From: Alphaproteobacteria bacterium
Lineage (GTDB): Bacteria > Pseudomonadota > Alphaproteobacteria > CAAHEQ01 > UBA3637
NCBI GenBank assembly: GCA_017412085.1
Contig: JAFPYS010000019.1
Location: 17,869-81,868 of the forward strand
Direction of reading: 5' to 3'
Length of the DNA stretch: 64,000 nucleotides
The stretch's first letter is position 1. Each line of letters starts with the position of its first letter. Below, piece by piece: positions 1,802 through 62,651 of this stretch. Made by a program: the position numbers and the translations under genes. The notes beneath the pieces were generated by a model, which did no database searches, was not told the DNA's origin, and saw nothing but the letters and a program-made list of their open reading frames with translations.

Positions 1802-2782
1802 TTATTTTCCTTTCTTTTTCGGCAAAAGATGTAGTTTGCGTTTTAAATATGCTTTAACAATGTCATTCACATCACGTTGCTTCAGACAGTAGATATCCGT
1901 GTCGGTGTAAGGCTTAGCATAAAAGCGGCGGCGGGCCTGCTCATAAGGTTGATCAAAGATGTGACTTAAAAATTCCAAGACCTTTTTATCGGATACGCGT
2001 TCCAGTGCGCCCGGCTGAAATACGGGTTCATGCATAATCTTTAAGTAAAGTTCATCATCATTGTCAACCTTCTTAATATATTCCATCATATCTTCCAATG
2101 AATTAAAATCATGTGCATTGATAAATGCTTTAGGGTTAAATTCTTCGGCCACCCGTGGATTGCCATAATATAAAGGAATGTGTTGTGAAGCAAAGGAATC
2201 GACTAACTTTTCCATGGTATAGCCGGAACAATAAGTATTTTCAAAAGCAATGGAGAACTTGTAGTTTCTTTGGAAGCCGACTTTTTCGGATGGCGGATAA
2301 ATGTGGCCGACCGTATTGTGATATTTGCCACCATAATCCACTGTTTTATATTGTTCCAAAAGTTCTAATATTCTGGGGCGTGCCCCATCTGTTTGAGTGC
2401 CATTGCCCAATACAGCACAGCAAAATTTGCGATCTAATAATTGTTTGTCGGTTAATCTTTCTGTACGATGAAGTGATTTTTGAATGTTTTCTTTGCCCAA
2501 GGCCCAAAGTGGGAAACGCATGTACCGATCTTCAAAGGTCAAGTAACTATGCCCAAAAGCATAATCACATAAATTAAAATTAGGGCACATTTGTTCGCCG
2601 GTCCAAAAAATGCGGATGCCGTCAAAGGCGTGATGTTTATTTCCAAAAACAGTATAAAAAATATAGTCTGGTTCGTCGGAGATCTCCACATCATATTTTG
2701 TGCGCAGAAGTTTAGTAAAATAGTGATTTTCTGCATCGAAATTTTTGCCGAAATCATAATAGTTTATTTTTAACTTTTTCAT
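1802..2782 (-). CDS. Glycosyltransferase family 10 (alpha-1,3/4-fucosyltransferase-like)
   Basis: 326 aa. Contains FSIAFENTYCSGYTMEKL, matching the GT10 alpha-1,3-FucT motif FxLxFENSxxxxYxTEK with a T->M change. No signal peptide or TM segment. Packed stop-to-start against ettA and dut. Confidence 0.7.
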   Translation of the reverse strand: MKKLKINYYDFGKNFDAENHYFTKLLRTKYDVEISDEPDYIFYTVFGNKHHAFDGIRIFWTGEQMCPNFNLCDYAFGHSYLTFEDRYMRFPLWALGKENIQKSLHRTERLTDKQLLDRKFCCAVLGNGTQTDGARPRILELLEQYKTVDYGGKYHNTVGHIYPPSEKVGFQRNYKFSIAFENTYCSGYTMEKLVDSFASQHIPLYYGNPRVAEEFNPKAFINAHDFNSLEDMMEYIKKVDNDDELYLKIMHEPVFQPGALERVSDKKVLEFLSHIFDQPYEQARRRFYAKPYTDTDIYCLKQRDVNDIVKAYLKRKLHLLPKKKGK

Positions 2783-24181: not shown

Positions 24182-25105
24182 TTACTTCTTTTTTTTAGAA
24201 AAGTCAAGTGGTGATTGATTTTTCTGTTTGTTCATCTCTTCGGCGCCCGAAACAATATCGATCAGCTCATCAGTAATTTGTGCTTGTCTGAGTTGTTGAT
24301 ACTGGAGATGAAATTCATCCAAAGAATCTTCAATGTTTTGTTCCGCTTCTTGCATATGAATCATGCGGGTATAGTGTTCACTTGCCAAACTAGAAACTAG
24401 ATCGTGTAGTACCATAACGGTCAGATACTCGTGCAAAAGAGCGCGAAACAATTGATCTTTATCAACGCTAATCATTGGAAGAGAGCGCCCATCCCATTTG
24501 GTGCGTTGCAATTGGTCCATATTTTCTTCTGGAAAGGGAATTAATTGCCGTGCCCGAGCGACAAAAGCGGCATTTCCTTGTTTGTGATTTGAAAATAAAT
24601 ATACAAAATCGATTTTATGAGCTGAGGCAATCTTGTTTATTTTGTTTAAAAGTTGTGCTGATATGGGCGCCAATTCTTTAAGTGAGTTTGAAATAGGATA
24701 GGTCGCCTCCAAAATATATTTAGGCTTGGATGAAGCCAGCAATCCGATGCGTTTGCCAACGGCGATAATATGTGGTTTGGAATCCGGAAACTGGTTTTGT
24801 AAATATTTTTCTGTAAATTTCATTAAATCCCGATTAAAGCGTCCAACCAACCCATTGTCTGAACCAATAATAATACCCAGGACATCTGACGCTTTGCTTG
24901 AAGATTTTGGGAGATCATAGTGAAAAGAATCTTGAGCAAATAATCCATGGAAAGCATCGCGGATTGTTTGCCCGTATTGCCTGAGGGATTGAAGCGCTTT
25001 TTCGTACTGACCAACGCTGACGGAGGACAGCATTTTCATGGTGCTGACAATCTCACCAAGATCCGAAGTCGTTTTTATTCGACGATTAAGCGCTTCTAAG
25101 CTCAT
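24182..25105 (-). CDS. atpG: N-type ATPase gamma subunit
   Basis: 307 aa. Gamma-like N- and C-terminal helices (IKTTSDLGEIVSTMKMLS ... ITDELIDIVSGAE). Last gene of the operon. Confidence 0.85.
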   Translation of the reverse strand: MSLEALNRRIKTTSDLGEIVSTMKMLSSVSVGQYEKALQSLRQYGQTIRDAFHGLFAQDSFHYDLPKSSSKASDVLGIIIGSDNGLVGRFNRDLMKFTEKYLQNQFPDSKPHIIAVGKRIGLLASSKPKYILEATYPISNSLKELAPISAQLLNKINKIASAHKIDFVYLFSNHKQGNAAFVARARQLIPFPEENMDQLQRTKWDGRSLPMISVDKDQLFRALLHEYLTVMVLHDLVSSLASEHYTRMIHMQEAEQNIEDSLDEFHLQYQQLRQAQITDELIDIVSGAEEMNKQKNQSPLDFSKKKK

Positions 25106-26617
25106 TTATAATCCTTTTTTATCAAGGGCCGAACGAAAGGCATCCAATAATTTGTTTTGAGTAGATGGATCTAGTTTCTCTCGCTTTAAAACAATTCGAT
25201 CAACAATGGATGAGAAACGTTGATGAAGTGTTTTATGAATAATATCTTGTGCCTGCAAGATTTGTTTGTCATTCATTGTATCAAAAATGCCATTGTTCAC
25301 AGATAAGAAGACTGCGATTTGGGTTGCCACATCCATGGGGTGAAATTGAACCTGTTGTAAAACCAAACGAATTGCATGACCACGATTTAACTTCTGCTGT
25401 GTTTCAGCATCCAGTTGAACGCCAAATTTTGAGAAGGATTCCAATTCTTCAAATTGTGAGTAAAAAAGCTTAAGTGGCCCCAATAATTGCCGATAAGCAG
25501 GTAATTGGGCTTCACCCCCAACGCGGGAGACAGAACGACCTGTATCAATTGCGGGCATGATGCCCTTTTGGAACAAGGACGTTGATAAATAAATCTGACC
25601 ATCTGTAATAGAAATTACATTGGTTGGAATATACGCGGAAATATTGCCCGCTTCCGTTGAAACAATTGGAAGAGAAGTTAATGAACCACCGCCCAATTTG
25701 TTAATTAAATGTGTGGAGCGTTCAAGTAATCTTGAATGAATATAGAAAATATCTCCAGGATAGGCTTCACGTCCAGGGGGTGTTCTTAAAAGTAAAGACA
25801 TCTGACGATAGGCGCGCGCATGGGCAGTTAGATCATCATAAACAATCAGAACATCCTTGCCTTTCATCATAAACCATTCGGCAATAGATGTGGCAGAATA
25901 GGGTGCAATAAATTGTAAACCGGCTTCTTCTTCACCGTTGGCAACAACAATAACGGAATGGTCCATCATGCCGCCGTTTTTTAATTGATCAATAACACGT
26001 GCGGTATCGGCACTGCGTTGCCCAATGGCGCAATAAATACAAATAACACCTGTTTCTTTTTGATTTAGGATGGTATCGACAGCAATGGCCGTTTTACCCG
26101 TTTGACGATCTCCCAGGATTAACTCACGTTGTCCCCGTCCAATCGGGGTAAAGGAATCGATAGCCTTAATTCCTGTTTGAAGAGGGGTATCCACTGGGGC
26201 GCGATCCATGATAGAATGTGCTGGTCGTTCAATCGGCCAATTTTCTTTTGTGTGTATCTTGCCCTGTTCATCCAACGGTTGACCCAAAGGATTTATGACA
26301 CGCCCCAACAATTCCGGGCCGACAGGAACTTCCAAAATGCGTCCAGTTTGCTCTGCCCGGTCTCCCGCCGTTAAAGAATCCGCATTTGTTAAAAACACAA
26401 CACCAGCTGATTTGTCTTCCAAGTTATGAACCATGCCAATCACACCATTCTTAAATGTCAAAAGCTCATTAATTTTTGCATTAGATAGCCCAGATACTTG
26501 TGCTGTTCCTGCGGAAATAGATATAACTTCATTTGCCTCTTTCACGTGCAATTTGGGGGCTGTTTTTTTGATGGCAGCTTGAATGCTTCGATCTATTTTT
26601 AAAGCTTTTTGTTTCAT
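25106..26617 (-). CDS. atpA: N-type ATPase alpha subunit
   Basis: 503 aa. Walker A GDRQTGKT. Carries LLLRTPPGREAYPGD and IYLSTSLF. Confidence 0.95.
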   Translation of the reverse strand: MKQKALKIDRSIQAAIKKTAPKLHVKEANEVISISAGTAQVSGLSNAKINELLTFKNGVIGMVHNLEDKSAGVVFLTNADSLTAGDRAEQTGRILEVPVGPELLGRVINPLGQPLDEQGKIHTKENWPIERPAHSIMDRAPVDTPLQTGIKAIDSFTPIGRGQRELILGDRQTGKTAIAVDTILNQKETGVICIYCAIGQRSADTARVIDQLKNGGMMDHSVIVVANGEEEAGLQFIAPYSATSIAEWFMMKGKDVLIVYDDLTAHARAYRQMSLLLRTPPGREAYPGDIFYIHSRLLERSTHLINKLGGGSLTSLPIVSTEAGNISAYIPTNVISITDGQIYLSTSLFQKGIMPAIDTGRSVSRVGGEAQLPAYRQLLGPLKLFYSQFEELESFSKFGVQLDAETQQKLNRGHAIRLVLQQVQFHPMDVATQIAVFLSVNNGIFDTMNDKQILQAQDIIHKTLHQRFSSIVDRIVLKREKLDPSTQNKLLDAFRSALDKKGL

Positions 26618-27405
26618 TTACGTGCCTTTCGTTGAACGGGGACAATTAAATTTTCGATATTTTGTTTTAAACGTTGGTTGATTTCCTCCAAATAACCATT
26701 CAAATTCCATTCTAGTACGAAAGTACCAACGCGCATTTCGATTCCCAACACTAAATCTTGACGCTTTTTGAATTGAAAGCGCATTTTGGGAGGAAGTGTA
26801 AGATTTTTGCTCACAATATTTTGGATATAAACTTGTTGTTTCGTCGTTAATTTTTCTGATGTGATAATCTGAATTAACTTTTCTTGTTTAATAAGCTTTT
26901 CCAGAACATTTTTCTTTTGTTTTGAAAGAGCGTGAATCTTTTTGTGAAACAAAGATAGGATTTGATCCATAGGTGTTTGTTGGGTCCATTCGGATAAAAT
27001 TTTCCGAGACAACGTCATAAATTCAGTTGCAAGCATTTCTTGAATGCTTACCTGTGATGTTTCCCATGAACGATTTAAATCTTCCTGCAAATTTTCGCGC
27101 TTAATCCTGTAATTTAATTCCAATTCTTTCATCATTTTAGCTTTTTGTTGATGAATATCGCGTTCCATTTCATCTAATCGTTTTTGATATAATTTATCAA
27201 AATCCTTTTGTTGTTGTTTTAGATGTGCTTCCTGTTCTTCCGAGGATTTTAGTTTGTCCTCAGCTTCTTGTATGGTGTCGGCGACTTCTTTCCTGCGCTT
27301 ATCTATAATACTTAGAACTGGCCGGTACAAGAAATGTTGTAACAACCATATTAATAAGAACAGGTTAACAATTTGCGCGATAAATGTGATAAGATTAAAT
27401 CCCAT
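26614..27405 (-). CDS. atpF: N-type ATPase subunit b with a delta/OSCP-like C-terminal extension
   Basis: 263 aa. N-terminal TM, long charged coiled coil, then a C-terminal segment (LVLGIEMRVGTFVLEWNLNGYLEEINQRL) resembling the C-terminus of subunit delta. No separate delta gene is present in the operon. Confidence 0.75.
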   Translation of the reverse strand: MGFNLITFIAQIVNLFLLIWLLQHFLYRPVLSIIDKRRKEVADTIQEAEDKLKSSEEQEAHLKQQQKDFDKLYQKRLDEMERDIHQQKAKMMKELELNYRIKRENLQEDLNRSWETSQVSIQEMLATEFMTLSRKILSEWTQQTPMDQILSLFHKKIHALSKQKKNVLEKLIKQEKLIQIITSEKLTTKQQVYIQNIVSKNLTLPPKMRFQFKKRQDLVLGIEMRVGTFVLEWNLNGYLEEINQRLKQNIENLIVPVQRKARK

Positions 27406-27415
27406 TTAGCCTCAC

Positions 27416-27694
27416 TTATTTTGTTGCCATTTCAACCGCAAAATTCCAAAATGGATTAAAGTATAAAATCAAAACTGTAATCACGAAAGCGTAAATTGCA
27501 GTTGATTCCACCATTGCCATTGCCACAAATAAAGTACGTGTGATGTTGGAAGATTCATCCGGTTGTTGAGCCATTGAGCGCAAAGCATTGGCCGCAATAT
27601 TTGCCTCTCCAATAGCTGGGCCAACGCCTCCAATAGCAACACATAATGCTGCTGATAAGACAGATATCATTCCAATCCATGTAATTGAATCCAT
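27416..27694 (-). CDS. atpE: N-type ATPase c subunit (two-carboxylate Na+-type site)
   Basis: 92-aa helical hairpin. Helix 1 reads GPAIGEANIA (E30); helix 2 reads MVESTAIY (E63, S64, T65, Y68). GGAGAA RBS. Confidence 0.9.
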   Translation of the reverse strand: MDSITWIGMISVLSAALCVAIGGVGPAIGEANIAANALRSMAQQPDESSNITRTLFVAMAMVESTAIYAFVITVLILYFNPFWNFAVEMATK

Positions 27695-27696
27695 AG

Positions 27697-28395
27697 TTAT
27701 TCTCCTTTTGTATCGTTATTGTTAATCAAAACTTCTTCGGGGGCTACCGCCGATACATATACGATAGCAAGAAGTGCAAAAATGTAAGCCTGGATGGTTC
27801 CCGTTAACAGTCCTAATAATTGTAGAGGAATGGGGACTACAAATGGTGCCAGCATTAATAAAACGCTGACAATCACAATACCGCTCAGCATGTTCCCATA
27901 CAGACGAAAAGCCAAGGCAAAGGTGGAAGAAAAATCAGAAATAATATTCATTGGTAACATAATTGGTGTTGGATCGATAAATTTTTTAAAATATTTCCTT
28001 AGACCAGCATTTTTGGTGCCATAGTAAGGGATGGCAAAGAAAACGACCGAAGCAAAAGCTACCGTCGTAGATAAACTGGCGGTTGGTGGATCAAATCCTG
28101 GAATCAGGGCCAGGAAGTTGGCCGTTGCAATAAATAAAAAGAAGGTGCCAATAAGGGAGATGTATTTGTTTGGGCGATCGTTACTGACAGCGTGAATCTG
28201 TCCACACAGGGTGCTCACAAGCATCTCCATAACCATTTGTAAACGTCCAATATTTTTGCCGCTAGTAAGTGTGCGTGTTGTGATGATGGATAAAACCAAA
28301 AGGACCAACATAGTGATCCATGTGTAAAACAATGTGGCATTAACTGGAAGGCCAAATAAATAGAACAAAATCTGAGTGTCCAAATTTTGAATCAT
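27697..28395 (-). CDS. atpB: N-type ATPase a subunit
   Basis: 232 aa, polytopic. Essential-Arg region LAFRLYGNMLSG. Confidence 0.9.
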   Translation of the reverse strand: MIQNLDTQILFYLFGLPVNATLFYTWITMLVLLVLSIITTRTLTSGKNIGRLQMVMEMLVSTLCGQIHAVSNDRPNKYISLIGTFFLFIATANFLALIPGFDPPTASLSTTVAFASVVFFAIPYYGTKNAGLRKYFKKFIDPTPIMLPMNIISDFSSTFALAFRLYGNMLSGIVIVSVLLMLAPFVVPIPLQLLGLLTGTIQAYIFALLAIVYVSAVAPEEVLINNNDTKGE

Positions 28396-28682
28396 GCTAT
28401 TGCCTTTCTTGGTAGATAGTTTAAGAGAATTAATCTGGTCAAAATAAAGCCGCAGAGAATAGATAAAAATTGCACAAGATTATGTTGCGCACATAAAAAG
28501 AGCAGGACAACGGCAAGCGATATACGTATAATGGCCGTTATTAACAAAAAGGGAACCTTGTGTTTAATTTTGGGCAATGCTTTTAGGGATAACCATAATA
28601 AAGTTAGATACACCAAGCAGATGAGTGATCCCATCGCGAGACCAAGAAAAAATTGGCTCAAAGAAAATGAAAAAGACATCAT
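28392..28682 (-). CDS. atpR: N-type ATPase accessory membrane protein AtpR
   Basis: 96 aa, 3 hydrophobic helices. Occupies the urf6/AtpR slot between atpQ and atpB. ATGA overlaps on both sides. Assigned mainly by position. Confidence 0.6.
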   Translation of the reverse strand: MMSFSFSLSQFFLGLAMGSLICLVYLTLLWLSLKALPKIKHKVPFLLITAIIRISLAVVLLFLCAQHNLVQFLSILCGFILTRLILLNYLPRKAIA

Positions 28683-28994
28683 TTTTTTGCCCCCTTTTTC
28701 TTAACAGATTTTTTTTCTTTTTTAAGGCCAACCGATCTGAAAAACCAAGCATTTGCATTATAAAAACCAATACAAATGCCGATTAAAACAAAATTCAAAA
28801 CCCACGAGATATGAGCGACAGGATAATATTTATCCAAAAAAGCACCAGCCAAAATACCAATAAGCACGGGAATGGCAACTTGAAAACCGTAAATTGTTAA
28901 AACCGCAGCGTGATAGGCGTGTTTGCGTTGGGATCGATTGCGCAAATTATTTGCTTTTTTAATTAATATGTTTGCCTGCTGTTCAAAATATTGA

Positions 28995-29008
<14 letters not shown>
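28679..29008 (-). CDS. atpQ: N-type ATPase accessory protein AtpQ (AtpI-like)
   Basis: 109 aa, 2 TM helices, Lys-rich tail. Occupies the AtpI-like slot after epsilon. Assigned mainly by position. Confidence 0.6.
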
Positions 29009-30833
<1,825 letters not shown>

Positions 30834-52688: not shown

Positions 52689-53025
52689 TTGAATCCTTTC
52701 GTTTATTTGACGAGAAGTAAGATAAGGATTGCGAAAATCATTTTCAAGCCCAAGATATACACAATTTATCCACAAAATACATAACTTATTGAAAATATTA
52801 TAAAATATATTATTCTTGCTTCTAAAATCCGTATGGATACATAATATAAATTATGCGACAAATATATTAAGAATAATTTCATAATACTCTATTAAATCAA
52901 TCAGTTATAATTTTTGTCTAAAACAAAAAATGGGGATTTTAGGCGCAATTTAAGTTGTGACAGACTTTTGGCGGGATTGCAAGCCTTTTTCGCTAAACCA
53001 TATCTATAATTCAATGGAGGTTTAA

Positions 53026-53172
53026 ATGAAATATTTATGGTTTATCTTATTTTTATTAACAATGGCATGTGTTGGGATGGGCTATATTCTAAACGATCTG
53101 ATCGACTACCTGTTCCGATCAAACCGCTCTGAGACGCAAATTGTCGTAGAAACACCCGACCTTGAACAATAA
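53026..53172 (+). CDS. Small hydrophobic ORF (48 aa), not in the ORF track
   Basis: GGAGG RBS 6 nt upstream. Reads MKYLWFILFLLTMACVGMGYILNDLIDYLFRSNRSETQIVVETPDLEQ, with one TM helix. Confidence 0.3.
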   Translation: MKYLWFILFLLTMACVGMGYILNDLIDYLFRSNRSETQIVVETPDLEQ

Positions 53173-53200
53173 TTTTGATTTTAGGCTCTATCCACCTTGC

Positions 53201-53359
53201 TCAAAGTTGCTTAATTTCGATATTGATTAAATATTCCAGGAATGCTAGCGCTTTCAAGCTGTTTTGCATATGCAAGTTAATTAATAAAGCTTTCAAGATA
53301 TCTAGTTGTGGCAAGAGATATTGTTTAATAGCATTTTGATCAATTTTGTGTTGTTTCAT
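53201..53359 (-). CDS. Small helical ORF (52 aa), not in the ORF track
   Basis: AAGGAG RBS. Reads MKQHKIDQNAIKQYLLPQLDILKALLINLHMQNSLKALAFLEYLINIEIKQL. Convergent with the 48-aa ORF. Confidence 0.3.
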   Translation of the reverse strand: MKQHKIDQNAIKQYLLPQLDILKALLINLHMQNSLKALAFLEYLINIEIKQL

Positions 53360-53584
53360 GTTTTTACTCCTTTTGTACACATTTATATACTAAAGCATGT
53401 TTTTATAAAATACAACAAAAAAAAGCAAATAAATTAATTTTATATATTAAAAATTGTATTTTACAAAATAAAATAACAGATTTTAGATTATTTTTTATAT
53501 ATAAAGCAGTATGTTGACTATGGGGGTAAGGAACCGCATTTATCCCCCTCTTCTTGATTCGTTTTTTATTTGAAGAAAAAAGAC

Positions 53585-53613
53585 TTGATTTTTCCACTTT
53601 TTTTAAATAAAAT
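53585..53613 (+). promoter_or_regulatory. Candidate promoter of tRNA-Ser
   Basis: TTGATT (53585-53590), 17-nt spacer, TAAAAT (53608-53613). Lies 33 nt upstream of the tRNA 5' end, with very AT-rich sequence upstream. Confidence 0.3.
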
Positions 53614-53645
53614 ATGATGGTTTTGAACATCCGTTTACTATTCGT

Positions 53646-53735
53646 GGAGAGATGGTCGAGTGGTTTAAGGCACCGGTCTTGAAAACCGGCGTGGGGGTTC
53701 CCCCACCGAGGGTTCGAATCCCTCTCTCTCCGCCA
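53646..53735 (+). tRNA. tRNA-Ser (anticodon UGA), class II, CCA encoded
   Basis: Acceptor stem GGAGAGA/TCTCTCC. Anticodon stem CCGGT/ACCGG with loop CTTGAAA. Long variable arm GTGGGGG/CCCCCAC. T arm GAGGG-TTCGAAT-CCCTC. Discriminator G plus CCA. Confidence 0.95.
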
Positions 53736-53736
53736 A

Positions 53737-53769
53737 TAAAAAAAAGCCCCGATTGCTCGGGGCGTTTTG
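53737..53769. terminator. Bidirectional rho-independent terminator shared by tRNA-Ser and convergent hydA
   Basis: A-run, then GCCCCG (53746-53751) pairing with CGGGGC (53758-53763) around loop ATTGCT, followed by GTTTTGTT. Confidence 0.65.
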
Positions 53770-53784
53770 TTGTCACATCGTGGT

Positions 53785-55536
53785 TTATTTATTATAAAGC
53801 GGACGCGCTGTATAATGCGTATGCAGCAACTCCTCTGCCTTTTCTGACAGTGGCTCACCCAAATATTCTTTATACAGTTTTTGAATATCTGGATTTTGAT
53901 GTGAACAACGCACTTTTGCTTTTCGGTCATCATTCATAAGACCAGCCTGGCGTGCTTTACGGACGGCATTTGTCACCCCCAAAGGTTGACCACCACCACC
54001 AACACAACCGCCTGGGCATGCCATGACTTCAATTAAATCATATGGTGTTTTTTCACCATTGGCTTTAGCGCGACGAACTTTTTCCAATACGCTGACAACG
54101 TTTTTAATCCCATGAGCAACAGCCACATGGATTTCATTGCCGGCAATATTCAAAGTCATTTCTTTAGCGCCTTCGTTTAAGTTTGTAATTTGATCAAACT
54201 CAAGGTTTTCAATTTCTTTACCTGTGATGAGATAATGGGCAGTTCTTAAGGCCGCTTCCATAACGCCACCCGAGAAACCGAAGATGGTCCCTGCTCCCGA
54301 ATAAGTGCCAAGTGGAGAGTCAGCCTCTTCATCTGGTAAGGCGTTGAAATCAACACCCATCTGTTTAATCATCCGCACCAATTCGCGGGTCGTCAATGAC
54401 ACATCAATATTCTGAATGCCGTCATGAAACATTTCTTTTGAACGTTTGATTTCCCACTTCTTGGCCGTGCAAGGCATAATGGATACAACAATCATGTCCT
54501 TTGGATCTACACCAATTTTTTCAGCATAATATGTCTTGGCGACAGCACCCAACATCGCTTGAGGAGACTTGGCGGTTGAAAAGTTGTCAATCATATCATG
54601 ATCTACTTTCTCCAAATAATCCACCCAGGCCGGACAGCAACTGGTAATCAATGGTAAACGTTCTGGTTCTTTTGTATAACGCTTTACAAATTCACTGCCC
54701 TCTTCCATAATGGTTAAGTCAGCAGCAAAGTTTGTATCAAAGACAGCCTTAAAGCCCATCCGGCGTAATGCTGCGTAGATTTTTCCTGTTACCAAATCAC
54801 CGCTTTTATAACCGAAAGCTTCACCCAAAGCCACACGTACAGCCGGTGCAATTTGGACGACACAAGTTTTTGTTGTATCTTGTAAATAGTCCCATACTTT
54901 TCCTGTTTCGTCAACTTCAGTGATGGCCCCCGTTGGACAGTGCGCCGAACATTGACCACATTTAATACATGGAGAATCTTCCAAAGGTAAATCACCAGCT
55001 GGCGCCATACGTGTATTAATGCCACGCTTTAAGGAACTTAAAGCATAGACATTCTGCACATTTTGACAAACTTGAACGCAGCGACCACATTGAACACATT
55101 TTCTGGCATCAAGTTGGATACATCCTGTGGAATCATCCACCGGTAATTCTTTTTCGGTTGGAGTAATGTTGTCAAAAGCATCTTTATCCAACGCAAATTC
55201 ACGAGCCAAATCTTGTAATTCACAGTTGCCATTTTTCAGACAGCTTAAGCAATCATTTGGGTGACGAGAAAGAATAAGCTCCACAATTGTCTTGCGGGCC
55301 TTCATGATATCTGGATCGCGCGTAATAACTTGCATGCCCTCGGCTGCTGGAGTGCAGCAAGAGCGGAGCATTCTGCCATTAATCTTGACAATACAAATAC
55401 CACATGCCGCTGTTGCTTCCAAATCTGGATGCTTACACAAAGTTGGCACAATTACCTGTGCTTCACGACAAGCGTCTAAAACACTTGTACCTTCTGGGAC
55501 TTTGACTTCAATTCCATCGATTGTTAACGTAATCAT
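53785..55536 (-). CDS. hydA: [FeFe]-hydrogenase catalytic subunit HydA (M3-type, CpI-like architecture)
   Basis: H-cluster motifs TSCCPAW, MPCTAKKWE and EVMACPGGCVGGGGQP. N-terminal 2Fe-2S ferredoxin-like domain. His-ligated cluster region RHPNDCLSCLKNGNC. Two 4Fe-4S motifs, CVQCGRCVQVC and CIKCGQCSAHCP. Probable start at ATG 55536 (MITLTIDG). Confidence 0.9.
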   Translation of the reverse strand: MITLTIDGIEVKVPEGTSVLDACREAQVIVPTLCKHPDLEATAACGICIVKINGRMLRSCCTPAAEGMQVITRDPDIMKARKTIVELILSRHPNDCLSCLKNGNCELQDLAREFALDKDAFDNITPTEKELPVDDSTGCIQLDARKCVQCGRCVQVCQNVQNVYALSSLKRGINTRMAPAGDLPLEDSPCIKCGQCSAHCPTGAITEVDETGKVWDYLQDTTKTCVVQIAPAVRVALGEAFGYKSGDLVTGKIYAALRRMGFKAVFDTNFAADLTIMEEGSEFVKRYTKEPERLPLITSCCPAWVDYLEKVDHDMIDNFSTAKSPQAMLGAVAKTYYAEKIGVDPKDMIVVSIMPCTAKKWEIKRSKEMFHDGIQNIDVSLTTRELVRMIKQMGVDFNALPDEEADSPLGTYSGAGTIFGFSGGVMEAALRTAHYLITGKEIENLEFDQITNLNEGAKEMTLNIAGNEIHVAVAHGIKNVVSVLEKVRRAKANGEKTPYDLIEVMACPGGCVGGGGQPLGVTNAVRKARQAGLMNDDRKAKVRCSHQNPDIQKLYKEYLGEPLSEKAEELLHTHYTARPLYNK

Positions 55537-55538
55537 TT

Positions 55539-57260
55539 TTAGCATCCTTTCTTTTCATCATCTTTTTTCAAGAGGGCTTCATATTCCTCTGGGAAATACT
55601 TCATAGTGGACAACACCGGGTTTGGAGAAGTTTGACCAAGTCCACACAAAGATCCTTTTTGCATGGCAGATCCAATCTCTTTGATTTTTTCCAAATCTTT
55701 ACGTGTCCCCTCGCCTTTGGCAACTTTAGTTAAAAGCCGCAACATTTGATATCCACCAAGACGGCATGGAGCACATTTGCCACAAGATTCATCCACTGTA
55801 AAGCCTAGATAGAATTTGGCGATTTCAACCATGGAATCATCTTCATCCATAACAATCATACCACCAGATCCCATCATAGAACCAATTTTCTTCAATTCCT
55901 CATAGCAAAGAGGCAGATTCAATTCTTTGGCAGGAATCACACCACCGGATGGACCACCAGTTTGTACAGCCTTAAATGGCTTGCCTGTGGAGGTGCCACC
56001 ACCCACTTCTTCCACCATTTCACGAACTGTTGTTCCCATTGGCACTTCTACAAGGCCGGAGTGTTTCACTTTACCAGTCAAAGCGAACACTTTTGTTCCC
56101 TTACTTGTTTCTGTTCCAACGCTGGAAAACCAATCGGCACCATTTAAAATAATTTGTGGTACGTTAGCCCATGTTTCAACGTTATTGATAATTGTTGGTT
56201 TTTGGAACAATCCTTTTTCCGTTGGGTAAGGTGGACGTGGACGCGGTGTTCCCTTGTTGCCTTCCAATGACATCATCAAGGCAGTTTCTTCACCGCAAAC
56301 AAACGCCCCAGCTCCAATACGTAATTCAGCCATAAAGCTAAAATCTGTACCGAAAATATTCTTACCCAAAATACCGGCACGTTTGGCCTGTTTGATGGCT
56401 AATTCAACACGTTCCAAAGCAAGTGGATATTCCGCACGAACATAAAACCAGCCCGAAGTAGCGCCAGTTGCGTAAGCAGCAATGAGCATTCCCTCCAAAA
56501 CGGCGTGTGCGCCACCACCCAAAATACAAGAATCCATATAAGCACCTGGGTCACCTTCATCACCATTACAGATAATGAATTTTTCGCCATCAACCAAAGG
56601 CGCTTTGGCTAATAATTCCCATTTTTTACCGGTTGGGAAGCCGCCACCACCACGACCACGTAAGCCTGATTTTGTAATTTCATCCAACACTTGCTGCGGC
56701 GTCATTTCAAATAAACATTTAATTAAAGCTTGATAGCCGCCATTGGCCACGTACTCGCCCAAATCTTCTGGATCAGATGAGCCCAGATGTTTCAACACCA
56801 CACGACGTTGTTTTGTGAAAAATGGCAATTCCATGGAGAGCTCTTTTTCTTGTAAATGAGGTGCCAATTTCAATTCGGCTTCTGGTTTACCAAGCAAAGG
56901 CTTTACATGCTGTTCTACAATCAAATGAGCAACATCTGGTGTCATTTCTTTATATAAGAAAGGTTTACGGCCTTTAATTTCAATGCGTGTCATTGGGCCT
57001 GCAGCACACAATCCCATACAGCCCGTCGCCACCAAACGAACTTTTTCTGTTAAACCAGCCGTTTCAAGGGCAGCTTTGAAAGCTTCGTAAACACTTTGTC
57101 CCCCGCCAGAATGGCAACTTGTTGCATTGCAGGTAAAAATGGTTGCTTCATATTTAGCGTTTGTTTCTTCGAAATCTTTGCCCATTTGCAAAAGTTTGTC
57201 TTTTTGCATGCGGCCAACCGCTTTTAATTTCTCAATTTGTTCAGGCGTCATTTCAACCAT
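55539..57260 (-). CDS. hydB: [FeFe]-hydrogenase flavoprotein subunit HydB (NuoF-like, NAD(H)/FMN-binding)
   Basis: N-terminal thioredoxin-like 2Fe-2S domain (CNATSCHSGG ... CMGLCAAGP). FMN and NADH motifs GGGFPTGKKWE and CNGDEGDPGAYMD. 4Fe-4S motif ESCGKCAPCRLG ... CGLGQTSPNP. Start at ATG 57260, preceded by AAGGAGGG. Confidence 0.9.
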   Translation of the reverse strand: MVEMTPEQIEKLKAVGRMQKDKLLQMGKDFEETNAKYEATIFTCNATSCHSGGGQSVYEAFKAALETAGLTEKVRLVATGCMGLCAAGPMTRIEIKGRKPFLYKEMTPDVAHLIVEQHVKPLLGKPEAELKLAPHLQEKELSMELPFFTKQRRVVLKHLGSSDPEDLGEYVANGGYQALIKCLFEMTPQQVLDEITKSGLRGRGGGGFPTGKKWELLAKAPLVDGEKFIICNGDEGDPGAYMDSCILGGGAHAVLEGMLIAAYATGATSGWFYVRAEYPLALERVELAIKQAKRAGILGKNIFGTDFSFMAELRIGAGAFVCGEETALMMSLEGNKGTPRPRPPYPTEKGLFQKPTIINNVETWANVPQIILNGADWFSSVGTETSKGTKVFALTGKVKHSGLVEVPMGTTVREMVEEVGGGTSTGKPFKAVQTGGPSGGVIPAKELNLPLCYEELKKIGSMMGSGGMIVMDEDDSMVEIAKFYLGFTVDESCGKCAPCRLGGYQMLRLLTKVAKGEGTRKDLEKIKEIGSAMQKGSLCGLGQTSPNPVLSTMKYFPEEYEALLKKDDEKKGC

Positions 57261-57261
57261 C

Positions 57262-57744
57262 TTATTTGCCCTCCTTTGCGCGCCATTCATTGATAATTGT
57301 TTTCACTTTATCGGGCGTCATCTTGCCATAGGTTACCCCATTGATTACCATCACCGGTGCTAAGCCGCAGCAGCCCAAACAACGGACGACTTGAATATAA
57401 AAAAGCCCATCATCGGTTGTTGTACCGGCGGGGACTCCTAATTCTTTCTCCAACTCTTCTAATACGCTGGCGCTGCCTTTAATATGACAAGCGGTTCCAT
57501 CACAAATGGAAATAACATATTTGCCAGGAGCCTTTACTTTAAAATAGTTATAGAATGTTAAACATTCATAGATTTTTGCCATTGGCACGCCCAAAGATTG
57601 TCCAAGGTACAAGGCTTCATCCCAAGGGACATAACCGAACTGACCTTGCAATTCGTGTAATGCCATAATCAAGGAACCGCGCTTACCATTCCATTTGCGG
57701 ATAATGGCGTCAACTTTTTCTTTATTTTCGTCGTTCATCTTCAT
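57262..57744 (-). CDS. hydC: [FeFe]-hydrogenase 2Fe-2S subunit HydC (NuoE-like)
   Basis: 160 aa. Cys pattern CDGTACH ... CLGCCGLAP is typical of NuoE/HydC thioredoxin-like 2Fe-2S proteins. Confidence 0.9.
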   Translation of the reverse strand: MKMNDENKEKVDAIIRKWNGKRGSLIMALHELQGQFGYVPWDEALYLGQSLGVPMAKIYECLTFYNYFKVKAPGKYVISICDGTACHIKGSASVLEELEKELGVPAGTTTDDGLFYIQVVRCLGCCGLAPVMVINGVTYGKMTPDKVKTIINEWRAKEGK

Positions 57745-57896
57745 CCTTTCTTTGCAATTGAAATACGTATGCGAGTGAGTCTATAGAAATTTTAAAGGAA
57801 AATCAAGAGAAAAAGTAATCATTTCGCATTATTTTTCTCAAGGATAACTTGTATCCTGAAGGATTTACTCTATCTTTATGATAAAAAAGGGGAAAA

Positions 57897-62605: not shown

Positions 62606-62634
62606 TTGACAGATATAATTTTTTACTTTAATAT
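62606..62634 (+). promoter_or_regulatory. lexA promoter
   Basis: TTGACA (62606-62611), 17-nt spacer, TAATAT (62629-62634). The track ORF start (TTG at 62606) is the -35 hexamer itself. Confidence 0.5.
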
Positions 62635-62636
62635 GA

Positions 62637-62651
62637 GAACAAAACAAGAAC
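62637..62651 (+). promoter_or_regulatory. Alphaproteobacterial-type SOS box (LexA operator)
   Basis: GAAC-AAAACAA-GAAC, a direct repeat GAAC-N7-GAAC. Lies 2 nt downstream of the -10 and 24 nt upstream of the lexA ATG. Confidence 0.6.

What the first reader, a model, noticed from the sequence alone, without database searches (positions are those of the whole stretch)
53785..57744. Three-subunit [FeFe]-hydrogenase (hydC-hydB-hydA) in an alphaproteobacterium-like genomic context
Three tightly packed minus-strand genes (1-2 nt gaps) encode a NuoE-like 2Fe-2S protein, a NuoF-like FMN/NAD(H) flavoprotein and a full-length HydA. All three H-cluster signatures are intact (TSCCPAW, MPCTAKKWE, EVMACPGGCVGGGGQP), so this is not a relic. 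Every flanking synteny block reads as alphaproteobacterial: secB/Tim44-like/mltA, tsaE-amgK-addBA, and the GAAC-N7-GAAC SOS box. HydA working together with NuoE/NuoF-type subunits is the combination used in eukaryotic hydrogenosomes. An alphaproteobacterial lineage with this module therefore bears on debates about anaerobic metabolism at mitochondrial origin. It also indicates an H2-producing or H2-consuming lifestyle for this organism.
Basis: partly seen in the sequence, partly recalled or inferred. Interest (0 to 1): 0.8.

Follow-up and report, generated by a model that had tools for sequence, protein, structure and literature searches.

The report
Rumen alphaproteobacterial HydABC hydrogenase operon
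This is a real, intact three-gene iron-iron hydrogenase operon in an uncultured rumen alphaproteobacterium, but this kind of operon was already reported in gut alphaproteobacteria in 2016, and its two NADH-handling subunits are not the ones used in eukaryotic hydrogenosomes.

Summary
hydC, hydB and hydA lie on the minus strand with 1-nt and 2-nt gaps. All H-cluster, FeS, FMN and NADH motifs are intact, and a bidirectional terminator follows hydA.

The genome is alphaproteobacterial. Seven species-representative 'Alphaproteobacteria bacterium' MAGs, those with a stated source being ruminant-gut, carry the same operon (90-97% aa) among housekeeping genes. Two of them share the window's hydCBA-eamA-cysS synteny, so the contig is not chimeric.

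The evolutionary reading is old and mostly unsupported. Degli Esposti et al. (2016) reported this NuoE-like/NuoF-like/M3-HydA operon in gut alphaproteobacteria and drew the same inference. Later phylogenies found no alphaproteobacterial origin for eukaryotic hydrogenases. They also showed that hydrogenosomal NuoE/NuoF derive from mitochondrial complex I.

Here, HydB and HydC score far higher against bifurcating-type HydB/HydC than against Paracoccus or mitochondrial complex I subunits. A ciliate hydrogenase fragment shows no special affinity to this HydA.

One feature is less ordinary. HydB lacks the C-terminal 2x[4Fe-4S] domain and a candidate hinge-site cysteine found in all characterised bifurcating enzymes. 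It still keeps their FMN/NADH-site signature residues. I predict, without proof, a ferredoxin-independent NADH-linked H2-evolving enzyme. No maturase genes are in the window.

The parts
57262..57738 (-). hydC: NuoE/HoxE-like thioredoxin-fold [2Fe-2S] subunit. It is 158 aa from the second ATG; an in-frame ATG at 57744 would give 160 aa.
   Evidence: ORF. Pfam PF01257 at 1e-46. Best PDB matches are HydC of T. kivui, T. maritima and A. mobile at 149-163 bits. Relatives start at MNEENK.
57355..57504 (-). HydC [2Fe-2S] ligand motifs CDGTAC (57484-57504) and CLGCCGLAP (57355-57381).
55539..57260 (-). hydB: NuoF-like FMN/NAD(H) flavoprotein, 573 aa. It has an N-terminal thioredoxin-like [2Fe-2S] domain but no C-terminal 2x[4Fe-4S] ferredoxin domain.
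   Evidence: Junction sequence with RBS. Pfam. PDB alignments stop at query residues 560-565 of 573, while the bifurcating HydB-type chains with the extra C-terminal domain (7t2r, 7q4v, 8a6t, 7p5h) run 66-70 residues further. Alignment with Fibrobacter and Verrucomicrobiae HydB.
57006..57131 (-). HydB N-terminal [2Fe-2S] ('B5') cysteines: CNATSC and GCMGLC.
   Evidence: conserved in 118-119 of 121 family members.
56532..56657 (-). HydB FMN loop GRGGGGFPTGKKW and NADH-site CNGDEGDPGAYMD. A240 and M242 are the bifurcating-type residues of Losey 2020.
   Evidence: criteria from PMC7311640.
55635..55787 (-). HydB NuoF-type [4Fe-4S] ('B1') ligands: SCGKCAPC ... SLCGLG.
55824..55847 (-). HydB DEDDSMVE: Ser476 stands where bifurcating-type HydB has Cys (DDC). 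That Cys is a candidate ligand of the Zn/'B2' hinge site.
   Evidence: Alignments. The family column holds S, N, D or I and never C. The ligand assignment is my inference from Furlan 2022.
55539..55565 (-). HydB C-terminal tail ...KKDDEKKGC plus stop. It ends where the ferredoxin-like domain of bifurcating enzymes would begin.
53785..55536 (-). hydA: M3-type catalytic [FeFe]-hydrogenase subunit, 583 aa.
   Evidence: Junction. Pfam and NCBIfam. PDB matches: T. kivui HydA1 551 bits, A. woodii HydA1 527, CpI about 412.
54934..55443 (-). HydA accessory clusters: [2Fe-2S] (C34, C45, C48, C60/61), His-ligated [4Fe-4S] (HPNDCLSCLKNGNC) and two CxxCxxCxxxC motifs.
53983..54645 (-). H-cluster motifs L1 TSCCPAW (54625-54645), L2 MPCTAKKWE (54451-54477) and L3 EVMACPGGCVGGGGQP (53983-54030).
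53746..53763 (.). Bidirectional intrinsic terminator (GCCCCG-loop-CGGGGC with flanking A and T runs) between the hydA stop and tRNA-Ser.
57739..57896 (-). Intergenic region upstream of hydC, divergent from eamA. It is the presumed promoter region, but no convincing sigma-70 site was found.
   Evidence: negative result

Best explanation
hydCBA encodes a soluble, cytoplasmic heterotrimeric [FeFe]-hydrogenase of an uncultured, low-GC rumen alphaproteobacterium. The lineage is probably one of the reduced-genome orders RF32 or Rs-D84.

Shown: HydB has the FMN and NAD(H) site. Electrons can pass through its NuoF-type [4Fe-4S] cluster and the HydA accessory clusters to an intact H-cluster. HydC and the HydB N-terminal domain each hold a [2Fe-2S] cluster.

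Inferred: HydB lacks the C-terminal 2x[4Fe-4S] domain (B3, B4) and a candidate cysteine of the Zn/B2 hinge site. Current structural models assign these elements to the ferredoxin branch. The enzyme therefore most likely does not bifurcate or confurcate. It would couple NADH oxidation directly to H2 evolution (reversibly), disposing of fermentation reductant while rumen methanogens keep H2 low.

On this reading it works like Syntrophomonas wolfei Hyd1ABC and like the hydrogenosomal Hyd-NuoEF complex of rumen fungi. It descends from the bifurcating HydABC lineage, not from complex I. The operon is a conserved unit across a broad clade of gut and rumen alphaproteobacterial MAGs.
For: - Intact genes, motifs and operon structure.
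- The C-terminal domain is absent. PDB alignments end at HydB residues 560-565 of 573, while the bifurcating HydB-type chains that carry this domain extend 66-70 residues further.
- The Fibrobacter and Verrucomicrobiae HydB next to the nearest non-alpha HydA carry DDC, KKCRAGKC and two CxxCxxCxxxC motifs. The window and other alpha HydB lack all of these.
- None of the 120 best HydB homologues lists a Fer4 Pfam domain. The DDC position is never Cys in 121 sequences.
- Literature rule: enzymes without B3/B4 do not bifurcate, and the C-terminal cysteines are conserved in all characterised bifurcating hydrogenases (PMC9304861; PMC11406978; PMC9499530).
- Alphaproteobacterial host and contig integrity.
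- The alpha HydA sequences cluster apart from Fibrobacter, Verrucomicrobiae and Omnitrophica in a crude NJ tree.
- Fermentative context: a D-2-hydroxyacid dehydrogenase and pgi lie in the window, and an AdhE-like gene lies next to the operon in relative L011.
- H2 formation from NADH is thermodynamically feasible at low H2 (PMC13556243).
Against: - HydB carries, invariantly, all the residue signatures that Losey et al. 2020 called most diagnostic of bifurcating beta subunits: A240, M242, F320 and GGPSG 435-439.
- It also keeps the N-terminal [2Fe-2S] cluster that S. wolfei-type HydB lacks.
- No member of this short-HydB subfamily has been assayed, as far as I could find.
- No hydE/F/G genes are in the window or beside the operon in any alphaproteobacterial relative examined, so maturation capacity is unverified.
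- Rumen H2 concentrations may at times be too high for NADH-only H2 evolution.
- Ferredoxin could still reach HydA's distal clusters independently.
Confidence: 0.6

Rival explanations
1. It is a canonical electron-bifurcating/confurcating HydABC (HydDB group A3). It would use reduced ferredoxin and NADH together to make H2, as in Thermotoga maritima, Acetobacterium woodii and Thermoanaerobacter kivui.
For: - The best PDB matches of all three subunits are bifurcating enzymes.
- HydB has the bifurcating-type residues A/M, F and GGPSG and the N-terminal [2Fe-2S].
- The nearest non-alpha HydA sequences (62-64% identity) sit in full bifurcating-type hydCDBA operons.
Against: - HydB lacks the B3/B4 ferredoxin-like domain and the DDC cysteine.
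- It fails the InterPro definition of BfuB used by Schut 2022, which requires IPR017896.
- All characterised bifurcating hydrogenases keep these C-terminal cysteines.
- No separate ferredoxin-like gene lies in or beside the operon.
Confidence: 0.25
2. The operon is a vertically inherited relic of the anaerobic metabolism of the mitochondrial ancestor. On this view it is ancestral to the eukaryotic hydrogenosomal HydA plus NuoE/NuoF module.
For: - The host is alphaproteobacterial.
- The operon is widespread in a coherent clade of gut alphaproteobacterial MAGs.
- Degli Esposti 2016 argued this for related gut MAGs.
Against: - HydB and HydC are much closer to HydB/HydC of Firmicutes, Thermotogae and Synergistetes than to alphaproteobacterial or mitochondrial NuoF/NuoE.
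- Published trees place hydrogenosomal NuoE/F with mitochondrial complex I and find eukaryotic HydA polyphyletic with no alphaproteobacterial sister.
- The ciliate hydrogenase fragment shows no preference for alpha HydA.
- The nearest non-alpha relatives are Fibrobacter, Verrucomicrobiae, Omnitrophica and Leptospirales at 62-65%, almost as close as other alpha MAGs at 65-72%. This fits lateral acquisition.
Confidence: 0.05
3. The segment is a mis-binned or chimeric piece from a non-alphaproteobacterial rumen anaerobe, or a very recent lateral import.
For: - The operon sits in different genomic contexts in different relatives.
- Hyd proteins are 96-98% identical to L009 and L010 while flanking genes are 56-79% identical. 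Hyd synonymous divergence (pS about 0.6) is below that of the saturated flanks (about 0.75-0.8).
Against: - The same junction hydCBA-eamA-cysS(-lexA) occurs in two independent assemblies.
- GC and GC3 of the hyd genes match the rest of the window.
- dS is already above 1, so no transfer is recent.
- ParE identity to its nearest hits (88-91%) is in line with Hyd identity, so much of the contrast may reflect fast-evolving flank genes.
Confidence: 0.03
4. It works mainly as an uptake hydrogenase, using rumen H2 to reduce NAD+.
For: [FeFe]-hydrogenases of this type are reversible, and S. aciditrophicus HydAB catalyses both directions (abstract listed).
Against: No H2-dependent terminal reductase or CO2-fixation genes are in the window. 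The genome neighbourhood looks fermentative.
Confidence: 0.07

Closest known systems
hymABC-like NuoE-like/NuoF-like/M3-HydA operon of human-gut alphaproteobacterial MAGs (Azospirillum sp. CAG:239, Acetobacter sp. CAG:977; Degli Esposti et al. 2016, PMC4967309)
   Same: It has the same three-gene module, the same M3-type HydA and an N-terminal 2Fe-2S on the NuoF-like subunit. The hosts are uncultured gut Alphaproteobacteria. The paper draws the same evolutionary argument.
   Different: The window comes from a rumen lineage. I could not retrieve the CAG sequences for direct comparison; alpha MAG relatives outside the rumen clade are 65-72% (HydA) and 70-77% (HydB) identical. In what I read of that paper, the missing C-terminal HydB domain was not mentioned.
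Electron-bifurcating HydABC/Bfu hydrogenases (T. maritima 7P5H, A. woodii 7Q4V, T. kivui 8A6T; A. mobile NiFe-HydABCSL 7T2R)
   Same: These are the best structural-database matches for all three subunits. They share the C-B-A subunit logic, the FMN/NADH-site signature residues, the HydC cluster and the HydB N-terminal 2Fe-2S.
   Different: The window's HydB lacks the C-terminal B3/B4 ferredoxin domain and the DDC cysteine. HydA has no C-terminal 2Fe-2S (A5) domain of the T. maritima type.
[quoted passage not shown]
   Same: It is a trimeric NuoE/NuoF/HydA enzyme whose beta subunit lacks B3/B4. The predicted chemistry is the same: NADH to H2 at low H2.
   Different: The window's HydB has the bifurcating-type residues (A/M, F, GGPSG) instead of T/S, K/S/A and Y. 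It also retains the N-terminal 2Fe-2S. It therefore belongs to a different HydB clade.
Hydrogenosomal Hyd + NuoE + NuoF (Caecomyces churrovis, Trichomonas vaginalis) and the ciliate HydA-NuoE-NuoF fusion (Nyctotherus, Cyclidium)
   Same: A hydrogenase is teamed with a 24-kDa-like and a 51-kDa-like NADH module. C. churrovis was shown to make H2 from NADH without ferredoxin, in the same habitat.
   Different: The eukaryotic NuoE/F are of mitochondrial complex-I descent, and the ciliate domains have no alphaproteobacterial affinity. The window's HydB and HydC score lowest against Paracoccus and mitochondrial subunits. The ciliate HydA fragment is only about 34% identical.

Membership tests
Group A catalytic [FeFe]-hydrogenase (HydA) | H-cluster motifs L1 (TSCxP), L2 (MPCxxK) and L3 (ExMxCxxGCxxGxGQP), with the proton-relay Cys | tested here: met
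   TSCCPAW, MPCTAKKWE and EVMACPGGCVGGGGQP are present. Fe_hyd_lg_C at 1e-92 and Fe_hyd_SSU at 2e-25.
Group A catalytic [FeFe]-hydrogenase (HydA) | Passes a curated family model | tested here: met
   NF040763 at 776.7 bits against a cut-off of 765. TIGR02512 at 504 bits against 406.
Group A catalytic [FeFe]-hydrogenase (HydA) | Maturases HydE, HydF and HydG encoded in the genome | not testable with these tools
   None is in the 64-kb window or beside the operon in relatives. Whole genomes could not be searched. Related gut MAGs are reported to have them.
Electron-bifurcating HydABC / Bfu family | BfuB core domains: 51-kDa FMN domain, SLBB and NuoF 4Fe-4S | tested here: met
   PF01512, PF10531 and PF10589.
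Electron-bifurcating HydABC / Bfu family | BfuB C-terminal ferredoxin-type 2x[4Fe-4S] domain (B3, B4; IPR017896) | tested here: not met
   No Fer4 hit on HydB. The protein ends 8 residues after the NuoF core. The same holds for the 120 best homologues.
Electron-bifurcating HydABC / Bfu family | Zn/B2 hinge-site ligands (3 Cys and 1 His) | tested here: inconclusive
   The Cys of the DDC motif and the KKCxxxxC motif seen in Fibrobacter and Verrucomicrobiae HydB are absent (Ser476, short tail). The exact ligand identities were not available to me.
Electron-bifurcating HydABC / Bfu family | Bifurcating-type residues near the NADH/FMN sites (A/E232, M234, F367, GGPSG; T. maritima numbering) | tested here: met
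   A240, M242, F320 and GGPSG435-439, invariant in 121 sequences. Criteria.
Electron-bifurcating HydABC / Bfu family | HydC/BfuC [2Fe-2S] subunit and HydB N-terminal [2Fe-2S] (B5) | tested here: met
Non-bifurcating NADH-dependent HydABC (S. wolfei type, Losey 2020) | Beta subunit without B3/B4 clusters | tested here: met
Non-bifurcating NADH-dependent HydABC (S. wolfei type, Losey 2020) | T/S and K/S/A at the NADH site, Y at the FMN site, and no GGPSG | tested here: not met
   The window has A, M, F and GGPSG.
Non-bifurcating NADH-dependent HydABC (S. wolfei type, Losey 2020) | Ferredoxin-independent NADH:H+ oxidoreductase activity | not testable with these tools
   This needs biochemistry.
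Hydrogenosomal Hyd-NuoE-NuoF module (complex-I-derived) | NuoF/NuoE orthologous to alphaproteobacterial or mitochondrial complex I subunits | tested here: not met
   HydB scores 289 bits against Paracoccus NuoF and about 257-279 against NDUFV1, compared with 514-643 against HydB-type chains. HydC scores 51 against Paracoccus NuoE and roughly 64-103 against NDUFV2, compared with 125-163 against HydC chains.
Hydrogenosomal Hyd-NuoE-NuoF module (complex-I-derived) | HydA specifically related to eukaryotic HydA | tested here: inconclusive
   Only one partial ciliate sequence could be compared, and it showed no affinity. No eukaryote appears among the named entries of the 120 best hits, most of which are unnamed. 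No full phylogeny was possible; published trees are negative.
Alphaproteobacterial genome | Housekeeping genes and synteny shared with genomes classified as Alphaproteobacteria | tested here: met
   Seven GTDB representative MAGs share the operon and flanking genes. Ten of the 11 ParE hits that name an organism are Alphaproteobacteria MAGs and one is Pseudomonadota; nearest hits are 88-91% identical and the wider set 78-83%. secB-Tim44-mltA and AddAB are present, with a GAAC-N7-GAAC box at lexA. Order-level placement (RF32 or Rs-D84) was not tested.

The most novel reading that the evidence does not exclude
Gut and rumen Alphaproteobacteria carry a distinct, biochemically uncharacterised HydABC subclass. 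Its HydB arose from a bifurcating-type ancestor by losing the whole ferredoxin branch (the Zn/B2 ligand, B3 and B4). It still keeps, invariantly, the N-terminal [2Fe-2S] cluster and every 'bifurcation-signature' residue around FMN and NADH.

If this enzyme is a simple NADH-dependent hydrogenase, those signature residues mark lineage rather than bifurcation. The clade would then be a natural deletion experiment on the HydABC mechanism, and a bacterial convergence on the chemistry of hydrogenosomal Hyd-NuoEF. If it still confurcates, ferredoxin must enter by an unknown route.
Probability: 0.4. Interest if true: 0.45.

Novelty: new member of a known kind. Interest (0 to 1): 0.25.

Why it matters
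The module tells us that these abundant, reduced-genome rumen alphaproteobacteria are probably fermenters that dispose of NADH as H2. That feeds methanogens and matters for rumen hydrogen and methane budgets.

It adds nothing decisive to the mitochondrial-origin debate. The same observation was made in 2016, and later phylogenies did not support the inference. HydB and HydC here are clearly not the complex-I-type NuoF and NuoE used in hydrogenosomes.

The one point a hydrogenase specialist might want to follow up is the conserved short HydB. It mixes 'bifurcating' residue signatures with a 'non-bifurcating' cofactor complement, so it could test which features really determine electron bifurcation.

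Tried and rejected
- Exact-sequence look-ups of HydA (586-aa and 583-aa forms) found nothing on record.
- The listing of cluster members on ten HydA neighbours returned no organism names, so the taxonomy of most neighbours stayed unknown.
- ATP synthase alpha and beta were tried as quick taxonomic markers against PDB. They matched Fusobacterium, Bacillus and Thermotoga better than Paracoccus or mitochondria. The operon turned out to be a laterally mobile N-ATPase type, so I rejected it as a marker and used ParE instead.
- I looked for evidence of recent HGT with dN/dS. Synonymous sites are near saturation, the flanking genes differ between pairs, and ParE identity is comparable to Hyd identity. 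The 'cassette exchange' idea is therefore only suggestive, and I did not adopt it.
- I could not assemble a eukaryote-inclusive HydA/HydB/HydC phylogeny. No eukaryotic sequences were retrievable except a 399-aa truncated Cyclidium porcatum hydrogenase from a supplement. No tree-building software beyond NJ was available.
- The NCBIfam name 'NADH-dependent ..., group A6' was considered as evidence for non-bifurcation and rejected. The same name is applied to the Verrucomicrobiae HydA, which sits in a full bifurcating-type operon.
- The promoter scan found no convincing sigma-70 promoter upstream of hydC. Rfam found only the tRNA.
- The GAAC-N7-GAAC count is not above chance for the window.
- A sensory (group C) hydrogenase was rejected. 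There is no PAS or kinase domain, and the catalytic motifs, including the proton-relay Cys, are intact.

Full report
OBSERVATION. Junction sequences show Shine-Dalgarno-like sequences before each start. hydC stops at TAA 57262-57264, and one base later hydB starts with ATG at 57260. hydB stops at TAA 55539-55541, and two bases later hydA starts with ATG at 55536. hydC most likely starts at the second ATG (57738), as its relatives do.

Pfam and NCBIfam identify three subunits:
- HydA is an M3-type enzyme with Fer2_4, a His-ligated 4Fe-4S, 2x4Fe-4S, the H-domain and an SSU-like tail. It passes the curated cut-off of NF040763.
- HydB is a NuoF-like flavoprotein with an extra N-terminal thioredoxin-like 2Fe-2S domain.
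- HydC is a NuoE/HoxE-like 2Fe-2S protein.

A perfect bidirectional terminator (53746-53763) separates the hydA stop from tRNA-Ser(UGA) at 53646-53735.

WHOSE GENOME. A scan of one genome per GTDB species with HydA found seven loci at 90-97% identity. All are in MAGs titled 'Alphaproteobacteria bacterium': UBA3650, goat-abomasum RGIG1600, Rumen_Coassembly_mag_2400, yak-rumen RGIG10246 and three SGB bins with no stated source. These contigs also carry housekeeping genes homologous to genes elsewhere in the window, including cysS, eamA, lexA, holB-tatD, tyrS, rnpA, mlaD, accD and atpAG.

L008 is collinear with the window from hydA through cysS. L011 has lexA-cysS-eamA, an extra ORF, then hydCBA. 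Independent assemblies therefore support the upstream junction, which rules out chimerism.

ParE from the window has 88-91% identity to its nearest hits and 78-83% to a very large set. Of the 11 hits that name an organism, ten are Alphaproteobacteria MAGs and one is a Pseudomonadota MAG. Ruminant-gut Alphaproteobacteria MAGs are described in the literature as reduced-genome RF32 and Rs-D84 orders (PMC8199421; PMC8992543). Which order this window belongs to was not tested.

GC and GC3 of the hyd genes match the rest of the window.

THE UNEXPECTED DETAIL: A SHORT HydB. Against the PDB, HydB aligns best to the beta subunits of bifurcating enzymes: A. mobile NiFe-HydB at 643 bits, A. woodii at 626, T. 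kivui at 560 and T. maritima at 514. The alignments end at residues 560-565 of 573, while those chains continue for 66-70 residues. That extension is the ferredoxin-like domain holding [4Fe-4S] clusters B3 and B4.

The nearest non-alphaproteobacterial HydA sequences (Fibrobacter sp. at 64%, Verrucomicrobiae at 62%) lie in hydC-hydD-hydB-hydA operons. Those operons are followed by TM1266-like and aspartase-like genes and a GTPase gene: hydF in the Verrucomicrobiae locus, and a cut-off MMR_HSR1 gene at the contig end in the Fibrobacter locus. In the Verrucomicrobiae locus two radical-SAM genes follow, presumably hydG and hydE. Their HydB proteins have 'MDxDDC', 'KKCRAGKC' and two CxxCxxCxxxC motifs.

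The window's HydB and the HydB of other alphaproteobacterial MAGs have Ser at the DDC position and only a short, unconserved tail. Across the window plus its 120 best HydB homologues, no protein lists a Fer4 domain, and the DDC position is S, N, D or I. All eight hits that carry an organism name are Alphaproteobacteria MAGs.

In the same 121 sequences, several features are invariant or nearly so. These are the N-terminal 2Fe-2S cysteines, the NuoF-type cluster, and the residues Losey et al. (2020) considered most diagnostic of bifurcating beta subunits (A and M at the NADH site, F at the FMN site, GGPSG in SLBB).

Current structure-based views hold three relevant points:
- B3/B4 form the ferredoxin branch.
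- The C-terminal cysteines are conserved in all characterised bifurcating hydrogenases.
- Enzymes lacking them, such as S. wolfei Hyd1ABC, do not bifurcate but still make H2 from NADH at low H2.
The sources are PMC9499530, PMC9304861 and PMC11406978.

My best-supported mechanism is therefore a ferredoxin-independent NADH:H+ oxidoreductase that removes fermentation reductant while methanogens keep H2 low. This is an inference from cofactor content, and the residue-signature rule contradicts it. I give it about 0.6 and the canonical confurcating alternative about 0.25.

The NCBIfam label 'NADH-dependent, group A6' is not evidence either way. It is also applied to the Verrucomicrobiae HydA, which sits in a full bifurcating-type operon.

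DISTRIBUTION AND HISTORY. In all alphaproteobacterial contigs examined the operon is a compact C-B-A unit without adjacent maturase, ferredoxin or PFOR genes, and it lies in many different neighbourhoods. In a crude NJ tree the alpha HydA sequences (the window clade, P0003, L002, L019, L003, L017 and others) group apart from Fibrobacter, Verrucomicrobiae and Omnitrophica. Identities are only 65-72% within the alpha group against 62-64% to those phyla.

Hyd proteins are unusually conserved relative to some flanking genes. Their synonymous divergence (pS about 0.6, dS about 1.1-1.4) is below that of most of the flanking genes, which are near saturation. This could mean exchange of the cassette among rumen lineages. 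It could also reflect strong constraint, or the fact that different flanking genes were compared in each pair. ParE at 88-91% fits ordinary vertical descent. I leave this open.

COMPARISON WITH WHAT IS KNOWN. Degli Esposti et al. (2016, PMC4967309) reported that human-gut alphaproteobacterial MAGs carry an M3 [FeFe]-hydrogenase gene next to NuoE and NuoF homologues. The MAGs were Azospirillum sp. CAG:239 and Acetobacter sp. CAG:977. The authors called the cluster hymABC-like, reported maturases elsewhere in those genomes, and argued for an alphaproteobacterial ancestry of eukaryotic hydrogenases. They also noted that the HymB-type subunit has an N-terminal 2Fe-2S absent from NuoF, and that no HymB equivalent exists in anaerobic eukaryotes.

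Lewis et al. (2019) re-analysed those sequences. [quoted passage not shown] Alphaproteobacterial sequences were dispersed among other bacteria.

Stairs et al. (2020) and Zhang et al. (2026) place hydrogenosomal NuoE/NuoF with mitochondrial complex I, and HydB/HydC elsewhere.

My own tests agree with these papers:
- HydB scores 289 bits against Paracoccus NuoF and about 257-279 against mitochondrial NDUFV1, compared with 514-643 against HydB-type chains.
- HydC scores 51 bits against Paracoccus NuoE and roughly 64-103 against NDUFV2, compared with 125-163 against HydC chains.
- The only eukaryotic hydrogenase sequence I could obtain is 399 aa of the Cyclidium porcatum fusion enzyme, from the Lewis supplement. 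It is 33-37% identical in the rows listed and scores 208-248 bits against all 132 HydA sequences tested. The window is among the lowest at 216 bits.

So the enzyme may work like the hydrogenosomal Hyd-NuoEF complex. That complex was shown to be non-bifurcating in the rumen fungus Caecomyces churrovis. But the window's enzyme is not a member or ancestor of that module.

VERDICT. This is a real, intact and correctly described operon in a genuinely alphaproteobacterial contig. As a discovery it is a new member of a known kind, and the proposed significance for mitochondrial origins has already been raised and largely set aside.

Residual interest lies in the conserved short HydB, which current sequence rules classify inconsistently. 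Untested items are the presence of hydEFG in this lineage, the order-level taxonomy, a full phylogeny including eukaryotes, and the enzyme's actual electron donors.

Noticed in passing
window 24182-30775 (- strand): The ATP synthase operon has the N-ATPase gene order atpD-atpC-atpQ-atpR-atpB-atpE-atpF-atpA-atpG. AtpR hits PF12966 and AtpQ hits PF09527. The c subunit carries a Na+-type ...VESTAIY... motif. The alpha and beta subunits match Fusobacterium, Caldalkalibacillus and Thermotoga better than Paracoccus or mitochondria. Relative L001 shows the same atpF-atpA-atpG end of the operon; the rest lies outside that locus. Whether this reduced genome also has a normal F-ATPase is unknown.
   Followed up: partly
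window 53646-53763: tRNA-Ser(UGA) and hydA converge on one bidirectional terminator. None of the close relatives has this tRNA next to hydA, so the operon's downstream junction sits at a synteny breakpoint.
   Followed up: partly
window 52776-53645: An AT-rich stretch of about 870 bp (GC about 0.37) has no ORF longer than 59 aa. It lies between a small lipoprotein-like ORF and tRNA-Ser. No Rfam family matched it.
   Followed up: no
L011 11867-14470: In relative SGB_3064, an 867-aa AdhE-like (bifunctional aldehyde/alcohol dehydrogenase-like) ORF lies directly downstream of hydA. This fits a fermentative, NADH-balancing role for the operon.
   Followed up: no
L021 750-5070; L022 2424-11746: The nearest non-alpha operons (Fibrobacter, Verrucomicrobiae) split the HydB N-terminal 2Fe-2S domain off as a separate protein of about 115 aa (HydD). 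They keep a cysteine-less thioredoxin-like remnant on HydB. They are followed by TM1266-like and aspartase-like genes and a GTPase gene (hydF in the Verrucomicrobiae locus, a cut-off MMR_HSR1 gene in the Fibrobacter locus). In the Verrucomicrobiae locus two radical-SAM genes, presumably hydG and hydE, follow. The alphaproteobacterial operons have the opposite arrangement.
   Followed up: partly
window 53785-57738 compared with L008-L010: Hyd proteins stay 96-98% identical, with pS about 0.6, to three relatives whose flanking proteins range from 92% (cysS) down to 56-79% (holB, mbl, tyrS, tatD) and are mostly near saturation at synonymous sites. This hints at cassette exchange among rumen alphaproteobacteria, or at unusually strong constraint or codon bias.
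   Followed up: partly
window 1802-2782 (- strand): A GT10 alpha-1,3-fucosyltransferase-like gene (FucT_N plus Glyco_transf_10) is present. This is unusual for Alphaproteobacteria and may relate to host-glycan mimicry in a gut organism.
   Followed up: no
window 62637-62651: The single GAAC-N7-GAAC box lies inside the longest lexA ORF (TTG start at 62606). The real lexA start is therefore probably downstream of the box.
   Followed up: no
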